This document shows positions 4 to 4,458 of a stretch of 5,475 bases of DNA, piece by piece (within the stretch, counting starts at the first letter, position 1; every line of letters starts with the position of its first letter). The notes under the pieces were generated by a model. It was not told where the DNA came from, did no database searches, and was given only the letters and a program-made list of their open reading frames with translations. The position numbers were made by a program, and so were the translations under genes. The DNA lies in sequence record KC237308; one strand, 5' to 3'. Source of the DNA: Enterobacteria phage ID204 Moscow/ID.

Positions 4-33
4 TTGACACAACCATAACTACATATCTATTAT
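4..33 (+). promoter_or_regulatory. Candidate sigma70 promoter for gene A (pA): -35 TTGACA at 4..9, 18-nt spacer, -10 TATTAT at 28..33
   Basis: Seen in sequence: exact TTGACA hexamer and a 5/6 match to TATAAT with 18-nt spacing. From memory, phiX174 has a TTGACA in the equivalent H-A intergenic position. The -10 assignment is inference; CTATTA at 27..32 with a 17-nt spacer is an alternative. Confidence 0.45.
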
Positions 34-34
34 G

Positions 35-59
35 CCTCCAAATCATCGGAGGCTTTCTT
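35..59 (+). promoter_or_regulatory. Stem-loop CCTCC (35..39) / GGAGG (48..52) with an 8-nt loop, followed by a pyrimidine-rich tract CTTTCTT; it sequesters the gene A Shine-Dalgarno and may be the readthrough terminator after H
   Basis: Seen in sequence: perfect 5-bp inverted repeat whose 3' arm is the GGAGG Shine-Dalgarno 9 nt upstream of the ATG at 62. From memory, phiX174 has the same arrangement (CCTCCAAATCTTGGAGGCTTTTTT before the A start). The regulatory or terminator role is inference. Confidence 0.4.
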
Positions 60-61
60 AC

Positions 62-1723
62 ATGCAACAAGCTAGTGACTTCTACAACAAACCACATATC
101 GACGCTATAAAACCACTCGTTGAAACCGCTGGTATGTCTGTGCTCTCTCAATCTCCAAACCTCCGTATCTGGAAACAGGTAAATTCTCGCATCAAACTTC
201 TGGAAGAAATTCTCGCTCATTACACCAATGGTATACGCCGTGACGACAACGGCGACTTCTGGATGAATCCTAACTCTCAACTCGCAACTACAATTGCCTA
301 TCGTGCCCATCAAAAAGGACACAATCCAAAACTTATTCAATACCCTGATACATTCACTCTGGATGACATTATCCGTAAAAAGCCATTACCACAAAACGCC
401 CCTGACGAATTAAAACTCTCCGATGAAATCGGGGAAGACTATCGCCTTACAATCATCTCTCTAATCGAAGAAATGCAAGAAATCTACGACGTGCTCGGAC
501 AACTTGATATTAATAACACTATAGACCACAAACCTATCGGTAACGCCCACTGGAATCTACTCTATGAAAAACCTGTCTATAAACACTGGTATGAACTGGT
601 ATCAAAACGACCCCTTAAATCAATCAGAGACGACTACAACTATGCAAAGGCTAAGGGTATCAAAGATGAGTGCTCGAAAATCCTTGAGGAATCTACTATG
701 AAATCACGTAGGGGCTTTACCGTTCAAAGATTAATGAATGCTATGCGTACCGCTCACACTGAGGGCTGGTATGTTGTATTCGATACTCTTACTCTAGCCG
801 ATGACCGCTTAAAGGACTTCTATGATAACCCCAATGCTCTTCGTGACTACTTTCGTGATATTGGTCGCATGGTTCTCACTGCCGAGGGTCGTTCTGTGCA
901 TGATTCATCTGCGGACTGCTATCAGTACTTTTGTGTGCCTGAGTATGGCACCCAGCACGGCCGTCTACATTTTCACGCAGTGCACCTTATGCGCACACTT
1001 CCTCTGGGTTCTATCGACCCTAACTTTGGTAAGCTGGTGCGTACTAATCGGCAAATAAATAGCTTGCAAAACACATGGCCTTATGGTTACTCTATGCCCA
1101 TCGCGGTTAGATACTCCCAAGATGCGTTCTCACGCGCTGGCTGGCTCTGGCCTGTTGATACAAAGGGTGAACCCCTTAAAGCTACCTCGTATATGGCTGT
1201 CGGCTTCTACGTCGCTAAATACGTTAACAAAAAATCAGATATTGACATGGCCTCTAAAGGTCTAGGGAATAAAGAATGGAACAATTCACTCAAAACCAAA
1301 ATCAACCTGTTGCCCAAGAAAATCTTTCGCATCAGAATGTCCCGCAACTTCGGAATGAAGCTCCAGTCAATGAGTCACCTCTCAGCGGAAACACTCATTC
1401 AACTGACCCAAGTGGGTTACGACGTGACCCCGTTCAACAACATCTTGAAGCAGAACGCCAAGAAAGAGCTCAGATTGAGGCTGGCAAAGAAATCTGTCGC
1501 CGACGTTTTGGAGGCGCAACCTGTGACGACCAATCTGCTAAAATTCATGCGCAATTTGACCCGTCAAATCGGAGTGTCCAGCCTACAGAGTTTTATCGCT
1601 TCAATGACAACGAAATTAACAAGTATGGATATTTCTGATGAAACCAAAAACTACGTTGATACTTCAGGAATTGCTTCTACTCACTTACGAATTAAATCGA
1701 AGTGGACTGCTGGCGGAAAATGA
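62..1723 (+). CDS. A: Replication initiation protein A (HUH rolling-circle endonuclease), 553 aa
   Basis: The translation aligns along its whole length with phiX174 gpA as I recall it (for example the C-terminal block ...KSKWTAGGK). The HUH motif HFHAVH is encoded at 968..985 and the active-site tyrosines of YVAKYVNKK at 1208..1210 and 1220..1222. I chose the ATG at 62 because it follows GGAGG (48..52) at 9-nt spacing and matches the position of the phiX174 A start. The ORF track's ATG at 32 is in frame but has no Shine-Dalgarno and lies inside the predicted -10 element. Stop TGA at 1721..1723. Confidence 0.93.
500..529 (+). other. Viral (+) strand origin of rolling-circle replication, 30-nt core recognised and nicked by protein A; predicted nick between G506 and A507
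   Basis: Seen in sequence: CAACTTGATATTAATAACACTATAGACCAC, which matches the phiX174 origin 30-mer as I recall it. It lies inside gene A, encoding ...[10 protein letters not shown]..., as in phiX174. The nick position is taken from established knowledge of phiX174 gpA cleavage. Confidence 0.85.
698..1723 (+). CDS. A*: Protein A* (N-terminally truncated A, from an internal in-frame start), 341 aa
   Basis: In-frame ATG at 698 (MKSRRGF...) preceded by GAGGA at 686..690 with 7-nt spacing. Position and length (341 aa) match the phiX174 A* start as I recall it. Whether this start is used is inference by homology. Confidence 0.75.
1276..1638 (+). CDS. B: Internal scaffolding protein B, 120 aa, overprinted inside gene A in an alternate frame
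   Basis: ORF-track translation MEQFTQNQ...[15 protein letters not shown]...[16 protein letters not shown] aligns with phiX174 gpB (120 aa) as I recall it. A purine-rich AGGGA lies at 1264..1268 upstream of the ATG. Stop TGA at 1636..1638. Confidence 0.92.
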
Positions 1724-1790
1724 TGAAATTCAATCTCAACTTAAAGAATTCGAGAAGCTCTTACTTCGTCACCTTTCGCCATCACCTTAA
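1638..1790 (+). CDS. K: Protein K (small non-essential protein), 50 aa, overlapping the end of A and the start of C in a third frame
   Basis: Not in the ORF track (too short). Hand translation from the ATG at 1638 gives [50 protein letters not shown], with stop TAA at 1788..1790. It matches phiX174 gpK ([31 protein letters not shown]...) as I recall it. The ATG shares its A with the stop codon of B (TGATG). Confidence 0.8.
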
Positions 1791-2512: not shown

Positions 2513-2534
2513 AGGGGCTTCGGCCCCTCTATTT
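2513..2534 (+). terminator. J-F intergenic hairpin AGGGGC-UUCG-GCCCCU (2513..2528) followed by CTATTT; candidate partial terminator and mRNA-stabilising element
   Basis: Seen in sequence: perfect 6-bp G/C-rich stem closing a UUCG tetraloop, immediately after the J stop. The same GGGGCTTCGGCCCC element is present after J in phiX174 as I recall it. Terminator function is from established knowledge of phiX174, not tested here. Confidence 0.6.
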
Positions 2535-2545
2535 AAGGATATAAA

Positions 2546-3829
2546 ATGTCTAACGTTCAAACTTCCGCTGACCGCATTCCTAACGACCTTTCTCACCTCG
2601 TCTTCGAGGCTGGCAAAATCGGTCGTTTAAAAACTATCTCTTGGACTCCAGTTGTCGCTGGCGACTCATTTGAAACTGAAATGGTAGGCGCTATTCGCCT
2701 TTCCCCACTTCGTCGCGGCCTTGCCGTCGACTCTCGTGTGGATATCTTCTCTTTCTATATCCCGCACCGCCATATCTACGGACAACAATTTATTGACTTC
2801 ATGAAAGCTGGCGTTAATGCCGCTCCTCTTGCTCCGGTTACCTGCTCCTCTGGCTGGGATTCTGCTGCCTATCTTGGCACTATTCCATCCTCAAACCTCA
2901 AGGTTCCTAAATTCTTACATCAAGGATACCTTAATATTTACAACAACTACTTTAAGCCACCGTGGGATGCTGACCTTACTTACGCTAACCCATCTAATAT
3001 GCCTGAACAGGATTATAAATGGGGCGTTTGTGTCGCTAACTTAAAATCTATCTGGACTGCCCCCTTACCTCCTAACTCTAAAACATCAGAGACTATGACC
3101 ACTGGTGCTACGTCTATTGATATTATGGGCCTGCAAGCTGCTTATGCTAAATTGCACACCCAACAAGAACGTGACTACTTCATGACTCGTTACCGCGATA
3201 TTATGAAAGACTTCGGAGGTCACACCTCCTATGACGGCGATAACCGTCCTCTTCTGCTTATGCGCTCTGAATTCTGGGCCTCTGGCTATGACGTCGACGG
3301 TACTGACCAAACCTCTTTAGGTCAGTTCTCCGGTCGCGTCCAACAAACATTCAATCACAAGGTACCTCGCTTTTATGTACCTGAACACGGCGTTATCATG
3401 ACTCTCGCCGTTACTCGCTTCCCTCCGACTCATGAAATGGAGATGCACTATCTTGTCGGCAAGGAATCTTTAACCTATACCGACCTCGCTTGCGACCCTG
3501 CTCTTATGGCTAACCTTCCTCCGCGCGAAGTATCCCTTAAGGAATTCTTCCACTCCTCGCCGGACTCTGCTAAGTTCAAAATTGCCGAAGGCCAATGGTA
3601 TCGTACGCAGCCTGACCGCGTCGCATTCCCCTACAACGCACTTGACGGCTTCCCTTTCTACTCTGCTCTGCCGTCTACTGACTTAAAACAACGTGTCCTA
3701 GTTAACACTGATAACTACGACGAAATCTTTCAGTCTATGCAACTCGCACACTGGAATATGCAAACTAAATTTAATACTACCGTCTATAGACATATGCCTA
3801 CGACTCGTGATTCAATCATGACGTCATAA
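2546..3829 (+). CDS. F: Major capsid protein F, 427 aa
   Basis: Translation aligns along its whole length with phiX174 gpF as I recall it (MSN.QT...DLSHL...PLRRGLA.DS.VDIF.FY.PHRH.YG...QGYLNIYNNYFK.PW...TSIDIMGLQAAYA.LHT.QERDYFM.RY...LPTTRDSIMTS), and the length is identical at 427 aa. AAGGA at 2535..2539 lies 6 nt upstream. Confidence 0.97.
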   Translation: MSNVQTSADRIPNDLSHLVFEAGKIGRLKTISWTPVVAGDSFETEMVGAIRLSPLRRGLAVDSRVDIFSFYIPHRHIYGQQFIDFMKAGVNAAPLAPVTCSSGWDSAAYLGTIPSSNLKVPKFLHQGYLNIYNNYFKPPWDADLTYANPSNMPEQDYKWGVCVANLKSIWTAPLPPNSKTSETMTTGATSIDIMGLQAAYAKLHTQQERDYFMTRYRDIMKDFGGHTSYDGDNRPLLLMRSEFWASGYDVDGTDQTSLGQFSGRVQQTFNHKVPRFYVPEHGVIMTLAVTRFPPTHEMEMHYLVGKESLTYTDLACDPALMANLPPREVSLKEFFHSSPDSAKFKIAEGQWYRTQPDRVAFPYNALDGFPFYSALPSTDLKQRVLVNTDNYDEIFQSMQLAHWNMQTKFNTTVYRHMPTTRDSIMTS

Positions 3830-3840
3830 AGCCTATAACG

Positions 3841-3878
3841 TGACAGGGGGAAAAATTTTAATTTTTCGCCCCCTGTCA
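3841..3878 (+). other. Long imperfect hairpin in the F-G intergenic region (arms TGACAGGGGG / CCCCCTGTCA with an internal AAAAATT / AATTTTT sub-stem); candidate terminator and complementary-strand priming or primosome-assembly site
   Basis: Seen in sequence: 10-bp outer stem 3841..3850 with 3869..3878, plus an inner 7-bp A/T stem and a CG bulge. The phiX174 F-G intergenic region has a homologous hairpin around the same AAAAATTTTAATTTTT core as I recall it. The function is inferred from phiX174/G4 knowledge. Confidence 0.55.
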
Positions 3879-3927
3879 GGTTGAACAAGCGCAAGCGCGT
3901 TAGCTACTTAACTTAAGGACTACTACT

Positions 3928-4458
3928 ATGTTTCAATCTTACGTCTCTAATCACACTTCACCTCAAACTAATACAACTATCTCCGGCTCTAAAACCCCTG
4001 CCGCTCTGGCTCCTATTTTATCTACGCCAGAGCTTAGCAGGGCTACTTTAGCCGGAACTATTACTACTACTGCGTTAGCTTCATACGCTGGTCTAGCACA
4101 TATTGTGCGCATTGACCACACTAACGCTACTAATCATCAATTACTAACTATCGCAACCTCTCTCGCGTCTGCCTCGCCTATTACTGCGATGGCTGTACGC
4201 TTCGAGGTTGCTTCGGGTACGGTTCCTACCGCTATCCCTTCTACAGCTACTTACTATCCAATTCAAAATATCATCTCCGGTACCTTCTTATCTGTCCGAG
4301 ATGCCGTTACTATCGAGACTATTCCAACCACTTCGTCAAATGACGTCTATGCTGGTGTCTTTATCTTCTCTAATGCATGGGTTGCTGGCCCTGTCTCTGG
4401 CGTTATCTCTGTCAATCAGGTAAACCGTGAGGTTTCTGTACTCCAACCTCTTAAATAA
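3928..4458 (+). CDS. G: Major spike protein G, 176 aa
   Basis: Translation MFQSY.S...VRFE..S..VPT..P....YYP......G.F..V.D.VTI...P.......VY.G.......WV.......SVNQV..E...LQPLK aligns with phiX174 gpG (175 aa) at the conserved positions I recall. AAGGA at 3915..3919 lies 8 nt upstream. Stop TAA at 4456..4458. Confidence 0.93.
   Translation: MFQSYVSNHTSPQTNTTISGSKTPAALAPILSTPELSRATLAGTITTTALASYAGLAHIVRIDHTNATNHQLLTIATSLASASPITAMAVRFEVASGTVPTAIPSTATYYPIQNIISGTFLSVRDAVTIETIPTTSSNDVYAGVFIFSNAWVAGPVSGVISVNQVNREVSVLQPLK

What the first reader, a model, noticed from the sequence alone, without database searches (positions are those of the whole stretch)
500..529. Rolling-circle origin 30-mer embedded in gene A, with the matching HUH and double-tyrosine motifs in the A protein
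The cis-acting origin and the trans-acting nuclease motifs (HFHAVH at 968..985; Tyr codons at 1208..1210 and 1220..1222 in YVAKYVNKK) are all readable in the sequence, which makes this a self-contained replication module. The origin core matches the phiX174 origin as I recall it even though the surrounding A coding sequence has diverged, consistent with strong constraint on the protein A recognition and cleavage site.
Basis: partly seen in the sequence, partly recalled or inferred. Interest (0 to 1): 0.45.

Follow-up and report, generated by a model that had tools for sequence, protein, structure and literature searches.

The report
Textbook phiX174-type replication origin in gene A
The 30 bases at 500-529 are an exact copy of the well-studied phiX174 rolling-circle replication origin, sitting inside the gene for its own nicking enzyme in a complete G4/ID2-like coliphage genome; the reading is correct but long known.

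Summary
The window is a complete 5475-nt G4-like microvirus (Gequatrovirus), 96% identical to phage ID2 except in gene G. Positions 500-529 are CAACTTGATATTAATAACACTATAGACCAC, unique in the window. They are identical to phiX174 4299-4328, where that record marks the viral-strand origin at 4306, which places the expected nick between G506 and A507. HFH at 968-976 and the Tyr codons at 1208 and 1220 align with phiX174 His263/Phe264/His265 and Tyr343/Tyr347, and the protein scores 1e-58 against Pfam Phage_GPA. The constraint is on the DNA. Gene A is 70% identical to phiX174 overall and 44-48% in the 60-nt flanks, yet the origin is 30/30. Across 15 diverged A genes this 10-codon window has the highest nucleotide identity (0.90) and third-codon-position identity (0.93, against a median of 0.48). 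Variation falls in the AT-rich spacer and at positions 2, 24 and 30. Metagenomic relatives with only 34-38% identical A proteins keep ACTTGATA and CACTAT(A/T)GACCA in register. The exact 30-mer is in 565 deposited phage records, and the conserved origin is described in the literature. Verdict: real, correctly interpreted, already known, low interest. The divergent spike gene G is the most unusual thing in the window.

The parts
500..529 (+). Viral (+) strand rolling-circle origin, the 30-nt 'icosahedral phage origin'. It encodes [10 protein letters not shown] (A residues 147-156 counted from ATG 62). The predicted nick is between G506 and A507.
   Evidence: Exact and unique in the window. Identical to phiX174 4299-4328, with rep_origin annotated at 4306. 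Global maximum of nucleotide and third-position conservation in gene A. 22 of the 25 invariant columns in a 150-nt, 7-lineage alignment lie inside it.
500..509 (+). Cleavage/recognition block CAACTTG|ATA.
   Evidence: Positions 3-10 (ACTTGATA) are invariant in all 24 A genes examined, including those with 34-38% identical A proteins. Position 2 is A or G. That this decamer suffices for cleavage of single-stranded DNA is my recollection of van Mansfeld et al. 1980, cited as ref 68; I did not read that paper.
510..516 (+). AT-rich spacer (TTAATAA), the variable middle of the origin.
   Evidence: Variation is concentrated at origin positions 11 and 14-17. The alpha3/St-1 clade has T11A and A14G. 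AlphaFold 3 models in the phiX174 mutagenesis preprint show base pairing disrupted at the AT-rich region.
517..529 (+). 3' conserved block CACTATAGACCAC, the presumed gpA duplex-binding ('key') sequence.
   Evidence: Origin positions 18-23 and 25-29 are invariant in all 24 sequences; only positions 24 and 30 vary, in distant relatives. The binding role is inferred from the phiX174 literature, recalled and not read here.
62..1723 (+). Gene A, the replication initiator (553 aa). The open frame also allows a start at ATG 32.
   Evidence: Pfam Phage_GPA PF05840, E 1.1e-58, 199 bits against a cut-off of 31.4. 99% aa identity to ID2 gpA, 90% to G4 and 44% to alpha3. ID2 annotates A at 62-1723. GGAGG lies at 48-52, 9 nt upstream of ATG 62.
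698..1723 (+). A* internal in-frame start. The origin lies upstream of it, in the A-only part of the gene.
   Evidence: ID2 and G4 annotate A* at 698-1723. The window has ATG at 698, preceded by GAGGA at 686-690.
779..796 (+). Rolling-circle Rep motif 1 (FDTLTL). It includes T242 and T244, homologues of phiX174 T202 and T204.
   Evidence: Conserved across 15 representatives. T244 is invariant and T242 is T or S. The phiX174 preprint assigns these residues a role in positioning the DNA.
968..976 (+). HUH motif His303-Phe304-His305 (metal binding).
   Evidence: H303 and H305 are invariant in 15 of 15 representatives and the middle residue is F or W. They align with phiX174 H263/F264/H265. E294 (941-943) aligns with phiX174 E254 and is also invariant.
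1208..1222 (+). Catalytic tyrosine pair Tyr383 (1208-1210) and Tyr387 (1220-1222), in YVAKY.
   Evidence: Both are invariant in 15 of 15 representatives and align with phiX174 Tyr343/Tyr347. Their catalytic role in phiX174 is stated.

Best explanation
Positions 500-529 are the viral-strand (+) origin of rolling-circle replication of a G4/ID2-like microvirus, embedded in frame in the N-terminal, A-only part of gene A.

By homology with phiX174, the mechanism runs as follows. The initiator gpA (62-1723) binds the supercoiled replicative form at the conserved 3' block (517-529). The AT-rich spacer (510-516) opens and exposes the 5' block (500-509) as single strand. One of the two tyrosines (Tyr383 or Tyr387), with the Mg2+ site formed by the HUH motif (His303, His305) and Glu294, then attacks the phosphodiester between G506 and A507. 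This attaches gpA covalently to the 5' phosphate of A507 and leaves the G506 3'-OH as primer for the host polymerase. After one round, the second tyrosine cuts the regenerated origin while the first phosphotyrosine bond is resolved by ligation. That releases a circular viral strand and leaves gpA attached for the next round.

Shown here: sequence identity of the origin, its uniqueness, its register in gene A, DNA-level conservation beyond what coding requires, and homology and conservation of the catalytic residues. Inferred from phiX174 biochemistry and not tested here: binding, melting, the nick position and the alternating use of the two tyrosines.
For: - **Match to the annotated origin.** The 30-mer is exact and unique in the window and identical to phiX174 4299-4328, where rep_origin is annotated at 4306.
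- **Divergent surroundings.** Gene A is 70.3% nt identical to phiX174, and the origin is one of only 3 of 464 ten-codon windows at 30/30. The flanks are 29/60 and 17/39 identical.
- **DNA-level conservation.** Across 15 A genes under 95% nt identity, the window starting at nt 500 ranks first of 428 for overall identity (0.904) and for third-position identity (0.926, against a median of 0.479). Its nucleotide identity exceeds its amino-acid identity (0.798).
- **Pattern of variation.** Variation is confined to origin positions 2, 11, 14-17, 24 and 30. Bullavirinae-like metagenomic genomes with A proteins only 34-38% identical keep both blocks in the same codon register.
- **Cognate enzyme.** Pfam Phage_GPA E 1e-58. 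H303, H305, E294, Y383 and Y387 are invariant and align with phiX174 H263, H265, E254, Y343 and Y347.
- **Literature.** Cleavage at G4305/A4306 within a 30-nt ori+, the catalytic Tyr343/Tyr347, the HUH motif His263/His265, and detrimental synonymous changes at Q107-D115 are reported in bioRxiv 10.64898/2026.07.25.740675. The review PMC5714925 gives phiX174 protein A as the prototype of Phage_GPA and describes bind and nick sites in the origin.
- **No hairpin.** No stable hairpin forms at the origin (z = +0.93), as expected for the unstructured phiX-type origin.
Against: Nothing found argues against it. The limits are that no experiment on this phage or on ID2 was found, so function rests on identity with phiX174 and G4. 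The assignment of roles to the three sub-blocks comes from 1980s phiX174 biochemistry that I could cite only through reference lists; PMC339857 is not held. No solved gpA structure exists for checking the protein-DNA contacts.
Confidence: 0.97

Rival explanations
1. The 30 bases are conserved only because the peptide [10 protein letters not shown] is essential to gpA. On this view the DNA has no cis-acting role.
For: The stretch is in frame and most of its peptide is conserved (Q/R-L-D-x-x-x-T-I-D-H/Q).
Against: Third-codon-position identity is 0.926 against a gene median of 0.479. It exceeds that of any other window, including the catalytic motifs: the windows at nt 914-920 have similar amino-acid identity (0.75-0.78) but third-position identity of only 0.60-0.63. 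Nucleotide identity (0.904) is higher than amino-acid identity (0.798). In phiX174, synonymous changes at exactly these codons are detrimental.
Confidence: 0.01
2. The identity with phiX174 reflects recent horizontal transfer or gene conversion of a short patch between microvirus lineages, not long-term purifying selection.
For: Recombination does occur in this group. Gene G of this window is a foreign or highly divergent cassette in an otherwise ID2-like backbone.
Against: The conserved patch has the same boundaries, to within 1-2 nt, in phiX174-like, G4-like and alpha3-like lineages and in three metagenomic ones. The flanks are diverged in every pairing. The alpha3 clade carries its own fixed two-base variant. 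The most distant genomes keep the two blocks but differ in the spacer, which looks like selection on function and not like a copied patch.
Confidence: 0.02
3. The sequence is the ancestral origin, but it is not the site, or not the only site, used in this phage. A diverged gpA would then have shifted specificity or would use another nick site.
For: No experiment exists for this phage. The N-terminal half of gpA differs substantially from phiX174.
Against: No second copy of the 30-mer or of the decamer exists in the genome. The best other decamer matches have 2 mismatches and the best other 30-mer match has 12. G4, whose gpA is 90% identical to this one, has the identical 30-mer at the identical coordinate. 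An unused origin would not stay invariant at synonymous sites.
Confidence: 0.01

Closest known systems
phiX174 viral-strand origin (ori+, nt 4299-4328, nick G4305/A4306) with gene A protein
   Same: The 30-nt sequence is identical. It sits in the same reading-frame register ([10 protein letters not shown], phiX174 Q107-H116 against window Q147-H156), in the A-only part upstream of A*. The HUH motif (H263/H265 against H303/H305) and tyrosine pair (Y343/Y347 against Y383/Y387) correspond.
   Different: The host genome is a different genus (Gequatrovirus, not Sinsheimervirus). gpA is 40 residues longer at the N-terminus. Gene A is 70% nt identical, and the sequence flanking the origin is only 44-48% identical.
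Phages G4 and ID2 (Gequatrovirus) gene A and origin
   Same: The 30-mer lies at the same coordinate, 500-529. gpA is 90% (G4) and 99% (ID2) identical, and the gene layout A/A*/B/K/C/D/E/J/F/G/H is the same.
   Different: None at the origin. Elsewhere the window differs from ID2 in gene G, at 35-54% nt identity, and has a shorter K. The ID2 and G4 records do not annotate the (+) origin as a feature.
alpha3 / St-1 (Alphatrevirus) origin variant CAACTTGATAATAGTAACACTATAGACCAC
   Same: The two outer blocks, the register in gene A and the cognate HUH/YxxxY initiator are the same.
   Different: There are two substitutions in the spacer (positions 11 and 14), giving DNSN in place of DINN. gpA is 44% identical.
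Other HUH rolling-circle origins (pT181/pC194-type plasmid double-strand origins; CRESS-DNA virus nonanucleotide stem-loop origins)
   Same: They follow the same logic: a bind site plus a nick site, and a tyrosine forming a 5'-phosphotyrosine link, with HUH metal coordination in the HUH initiators (review PMC5714925).
   Different: By my recollection, those origins commonly present the nick site in a hairpin loop. Here no hairpin is predicted (z = +0.93), and opening is attributed to an AT-rich spacer in supercoiled DNA. phiX-type initiators use two tyrosines and reinitiate, whereas pT181 RepC is inactivated after one round.

Membership tests
phiX174-type 30-nt viral-strand origin of isometric ssDNA coliphages (Bullavirinae) | 30-nt sequence CAACTTGATATTAATAACACTATAGACCAC, or the alpha3-type spacer variant | tested here: met
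   30/30 match to phiX174 4299-4328 and to G4 and ID2 500-529.
phiX174-type 30-nt viral-strand origin of isometric ssDNA coliphages (Bullavirinae) | Located inside gene A, upstream of the A* start, in the frame that reads [10 protein letters not shown] | tested here: met
   500 is the first base of codon 147 of A, counted from ATG 62. A* starts at 698. The register is the same in all 24 A genes aligned.
phiX174-type 30-nt viral-strand origin of isometric ssDNA coliphages (Bullavirinae) | Single copy per genome | tested here: met
   One match at up to 3 mismatches. The next-best 30-mer has 12 mismatches. There is no other decamer at up to 1 mismatch.
phiX174-type 30-nt viral-strand origin of isometric ssDNA coliphages (Bullavirinae) | Constraint on the DNA itself, beyond coding needs | tested here: met
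   Highest third-position identity in gene A (0.926 against a median of 0.479). Detrimental synonymous mutations at the homologous phiX174 codons.
phiX174-type 30-nt viral-strand origin of isometric ssDNA coliphages (Bullavirinae) | Nicked by cognate gpA between G7 and A8 of the 30-mer on supercoiled DNA; sufficient in cis for rolling-circle replication | not testable with these tools
   This needs biochemistry. It is inferred from phiX174 (G4305/A4306).
Phage_GPA (PF05840) HUH rolling-circle initiators | Significant match to the family profile above the curated cut-off | tested here: met
   E 1.1e-58, 199.2 bits against a cut-off of 31.4, covering residues 146-404 of the 563-aa ORF.
Phage_GPA (PF05840) HUH rolling-circle initiators | HUH motif (His-hydrophobic-His) | tested here: met
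   H303-F304-H305 at 968-976. Both His are invariant in 15 of 15 representatives.
Phage_GPA (PF05840) HUH rolling-circle initiators | Two catalytic tyrosines spaced YxxxY | tested here: met
   Y383 and Y387 (1208-1210, 1220-1222), invariant in 15 of 15, aligned with phiX174 Y343/Y347.
Phage_GPA (PF05840) HUH rolling-circle initiators | HUH-nuclease fold | not tested
   No solved relative is detectable by sequence. I did not run a structure prediction because it would not change the verdict.
Gequatrovirus (G4-like Bullavirinae) genome | Collinear genome highly similar to G4/ID2 type phages | tested here: met
   96.2% identity to ID2 over 91% of the window and about 85% to the G4/ID11 group. The gene order is the same.

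The most novel reading that the evidence does not exclude
The origin itself is not new. The most novel reading the evidence leaves open comes from the comparison. Deep-branching, uncultivated Bullavirinae-like genomes (L025, L026, L027; A proteins 34-38% identical) carry origin variants. These keep ACTTGATA and CACTAT(A/T)GACCA but change position 2, the spacer, and positions 24 and 30. Paired with their diverged initiators, these natural variants could define which bases gpA actually reads and whether initiator and origin have co-evolved into separate specificity groups.
Probability: 0.4. Interest if true: 0.25.

Novelty: already known. Interest (0 to 1): 0.08.

Why it matters
For this window it matters little. 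It confirms that a newly seen ID2-like coliphage has the standard viral-strand origin and a standard initiator, so replication can be annotated by homology; neither the ID2 nor the G4 record marks the (+) origin as a feature. The quantitative comparison does show a clear case of a cis-acting DNA element overriding synonymous-site freedom inside a gene. It also shows that the two outer blocks of the origin are conserved much deeper in the Bullavirinae-like radiation than the initiator protein sequence is.

Tried and rejected
- **Hairpin at the origin.** I folded 470-560 as single-stranded DNA to look for one. None is predicted: -2.5 kcal/mol, z = +0.93, and 168 of 200 shuffles fold at least as well. 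A stem-loop type origin is rejected.
- **Second origin or decamer.** None exists in the window.
- **Host genomes.** The 30-mer has no match in 5,426 complete E. coli genomes by megablast.
- **Solved structure of a gpA relative.** None was found by sequence.
- **Primary papers.** A search for Heidekamp found no held paper. The van Mansfeld 1986 paper, PMC339857, is not held. A search for the Rokyta microvirid-genomes paper returned mostly unrelated 'ID2' gene papers. One search call failed on a term that was too short.
- **Origin-like sequence in the most distant gpA relatives.** L028-L030 (about 30% identity, catalytic domain only) give best matches of 12-13 mismatches, which is background.
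- **Relatives of the divergent G protein in IMG/VR.** None was confirmed.
- **Not run.** I considered structure prediction of gpA and a fold search but did not run them, because they could not change the verdict.

Full report
**What the window is.** The 5475 bases are a complete microvirus genome with the gene order A/A*, B, K, C, D, E, J, F, G, H. Megablast against 50,697 phage records gives Escherichia phage ID2 (Gequatrovirus) as the best hit, at 96.2% identity over 91% of the window. The G4/ID11/ID18 group follows at about 85%. The window is linearised at the same point as the ID2 and G4 records, and most gene coordinates coincide.

**Checking the observation.**
- Positions 500-529 read CAACTTGATATTAATAACACTATAGACCAC. 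This is the only match in the window at up to 3 mismatches on either strand, and none of 200 shuffles produced a match. The next-best 30-mer has 12 mismatches.
- The sequence is identical to phiX174 NC_001422 4299-4328 and to G4 and ID2 500-529.
- The phiX174 record annotates rep_origin ('origin of viral strand synthesis') at 4306.
- 968-985 encodes HFHAVH, and 1208-1210 and 1220-1222 are the two Tyr codons of YVAKYVNKK, all in the gene A frame.

**The protein.**
- The ORF matches Pfam Phage_GPA (PF05840) at E 1.1e-58.
- In a 24-sequence alignment, window H303/F304/H305, E294 and Y383/Y387 (numbered from ATG 62) align with phiX174 H263/F264/H265, E254 and Y343/Y347. Apart from the F/W middle residue of the HUH motif, all are invariant in 15 of 15 representatives under 95% nt identity.
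- A 2026 preprint on complete mutagenesis of phiX174 states that cleavage and religation occur at G4305/A4306 within the 30-nt ori+. It also states that Tyr343/Tyr347 are catalytic and that His263/His265 with Glu254 hold the Mg2+.
- The review PMC5714925 names phiX174 protein A as the prototype of Phage_GPA and describes bind and nick sites in the origin.
- No solved structure of a relative exists.

**Is the conservation more than coding constraint?** It is.
- Gene A of the window is 70.3% nt identical to phiX174, and only 3 of 464 ten-codon windows are 30/30. The origin is one. The other two overlap each other at the 3' end of A, where K and C also overlap it.
- The 60 nt upstream are 29/60 identical, and downstream 17 of 39 aligned bases match.
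- Relatives were collected through the protein, not through the origin sequence: 26 IMG/VR loci plus four reference genomes.
- Across 15 representatives, the window starting at nt 500 ranks first of 428 for overall nucleotide identity (0.904) and for third-position identity (0.926, against a median of 0.479). Its nucleotide identity exceeds its amino-acid identity of 0.798.
- The windows at nt 914-920, which lead into the HUH motif, have similar amino-acid identity but third-position identity of only about 0.60-0.63.
- In phiX174, synonymous mutations at Q107-D115, the homologous codons, are among the few detrimental synonymous changes and are attributed to ori+.

**Anatomy from natural variation.**
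- Across 24 A genes, origin positions 1, 3-10, 12-13, 18-23 and 25-29 never vary. Variation is at positions 2, 11, 14-17, 24 and 30.
- The alpha3/St-1 clade has the fixed variant CAACTTGATAATAGTAACACTATAGACCAC.
- Three metagenomic genomes encode F, D or H homologues, so they are Bullavirinae-like, but their A proteins are only 34-38% identical. They carry CGACTTGATATTAATCACACTATTGACCAG (L025) and CGACTTGATAATACATGCACTATAGACCAT (L026, L027) in exactly the same codon register.
- This agrees with the three-part description I recall from the phiX174 literature: a 5' recognition and cleavage block, an AT-rich spacer, and a 3' binding block.
- In a 150-nt alignment of seven lineages, 22 of the 25 invariant columns lie within the 30-mer.
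- The region does not fold into a hairpin (z = +0.93). This distinguishes it from stem-loop origins of other HUH replicons.

**Mechanism.**
- By homology, gpA binds the supercoiled replicative form at the 3' block. The spacer opens, and a tyrosine attacks between G506 and A507, becoming linked to the 5' phosphate of A507.
- The host polymerase extends from G506. After one round, the second tyrosine cuts the regenerated site while the first link is resolved by ligation, releasing a circle.
- Only the sequence-level facts are shown here. The chemistry is inferred from phiX174.
- 'Self-contained module' overstates the case. Host Rep helicase, SSB and DNA polymerase III are needed, as is a separate complementary-strand origin. 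This rests on established knowledge.

**How known is it?** The exact 30-mer is present in 565 phage records, essentially every phiX174-like and G4-like genome in the collection, and the alpha3/St-1 group holds the 28/30 variant. It is absent from 5,426 complete E. coli genomes. [quoted passage not shown] 1988, ref 22). The finding is therefore accurate, correctly interpreted and already known.

**Other things seen.**
- Gene G (3928-4458) is only 35-54% nt identical to ID2, while the rest of the genome is about 96%. Its protein is at most 56.5% identical to any G in the phage collection. It is 99% identical to a single ENA metagenome protein, with the next hit at 55%.
- K ends at a TAA (1788-1790) where ID2 has GAA and G4 has CAA, giving 50 aa in place of 56.
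- The F-G intergenic region holds a strong hairpin (-20 kcal/mol, z = -4.5). It is identical in ID2 but does not align with the G4 complementary-strand origin.

Noticed in passing
window 3928-4458 (gene G, major spike protein): Gene G is a divergent cassette in an otherwise ID2-like genome. It is 35-54% nt identical to ID2, while the rest of the genome is about 96%. The protein is at most 56.5% identical to any G in 50,697 phage records. It is 99% identical to one ENA metagenome protein (P0001, on a 1145-nt contig), with the next hit at 55%. No relative was confirmed in IMG/VR. This suggests a recombinational swap of the host-recognition spike and is the most unusual thing in the window.
   Followed up: partly
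window 1638-1790 (gene K): K stops at TAA 1788-1790, where ID2 has GAA and G4 has CAA. K is therefore 50 aa here and not the 56 aa annotated in ID2 and G4. The ID2 record's annotation describes K as non-essential.
   Followed up: partly
window 3837-3882 (F-G intergenic region): A long, nearly perfect hairpin, GTGACAGGGGGAAAAATT...AATTTTTCGCCCCCTGTCAG, forms in the viral strand (-20 kcal/mol over 3826-3930, z = -4.5, 0 of 200 shuffles fold as well). It is identical in ID2 but does not align with the G4 primase-dependent complementary-strand origin annotated at G4 3970-3998. It may be the complementary-strand origin and/or a terminator of the ID2 clade.
   Followed up: partly
window 2513-2528 (J-F intergenic region): A short G+C hairpin with a TTCG loop (AGGGGC TTCG GCCCCT) sits just after the J stop codon. 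It was read by eye. Its position corresponds to the terminator after J that the phiX174 preprint lists (T_J).
   Followed up: no
L025:2640-2669, L026:212-241, L027:646-675, L011:1053-1082: Uncultivated Bullavirinae-like genomes from IMG/VR, encoding D, F, G or H homologues, carry origin variants. L025 (A protein 38% identical) has 4 mismatches and L026/L027 (34%) have 7, all outside ACTTGATA and CACTAT(A/T)GACCA. L011 (A protein 52% identical) keeps the exact 30-mer.
   Followed up: partly
window about 1574-1606 and the last ~35 nt of gene A (ending 1723): These are the other stretches of unusually high third-position or phiX174 identity within gene A. One starts at nt 1574-1577 inside the A/B overlap (third-position identity 0.77-0.81). 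The other is the 30/30 match to phiX174 at the end of A, where K and the start of C also overlap it. Overlapping reading frames are the likely cause.
   Followed up: no
window 32-64 (start of gene A): The open frame allows a start at ATG 32 (563 aa), but GGAGG at 48-52 lies 9 nt before ATG 62, and ID2 annotates A from 62 (553 aa). The G4 record annotates its start at 59.
   Followed up: partly
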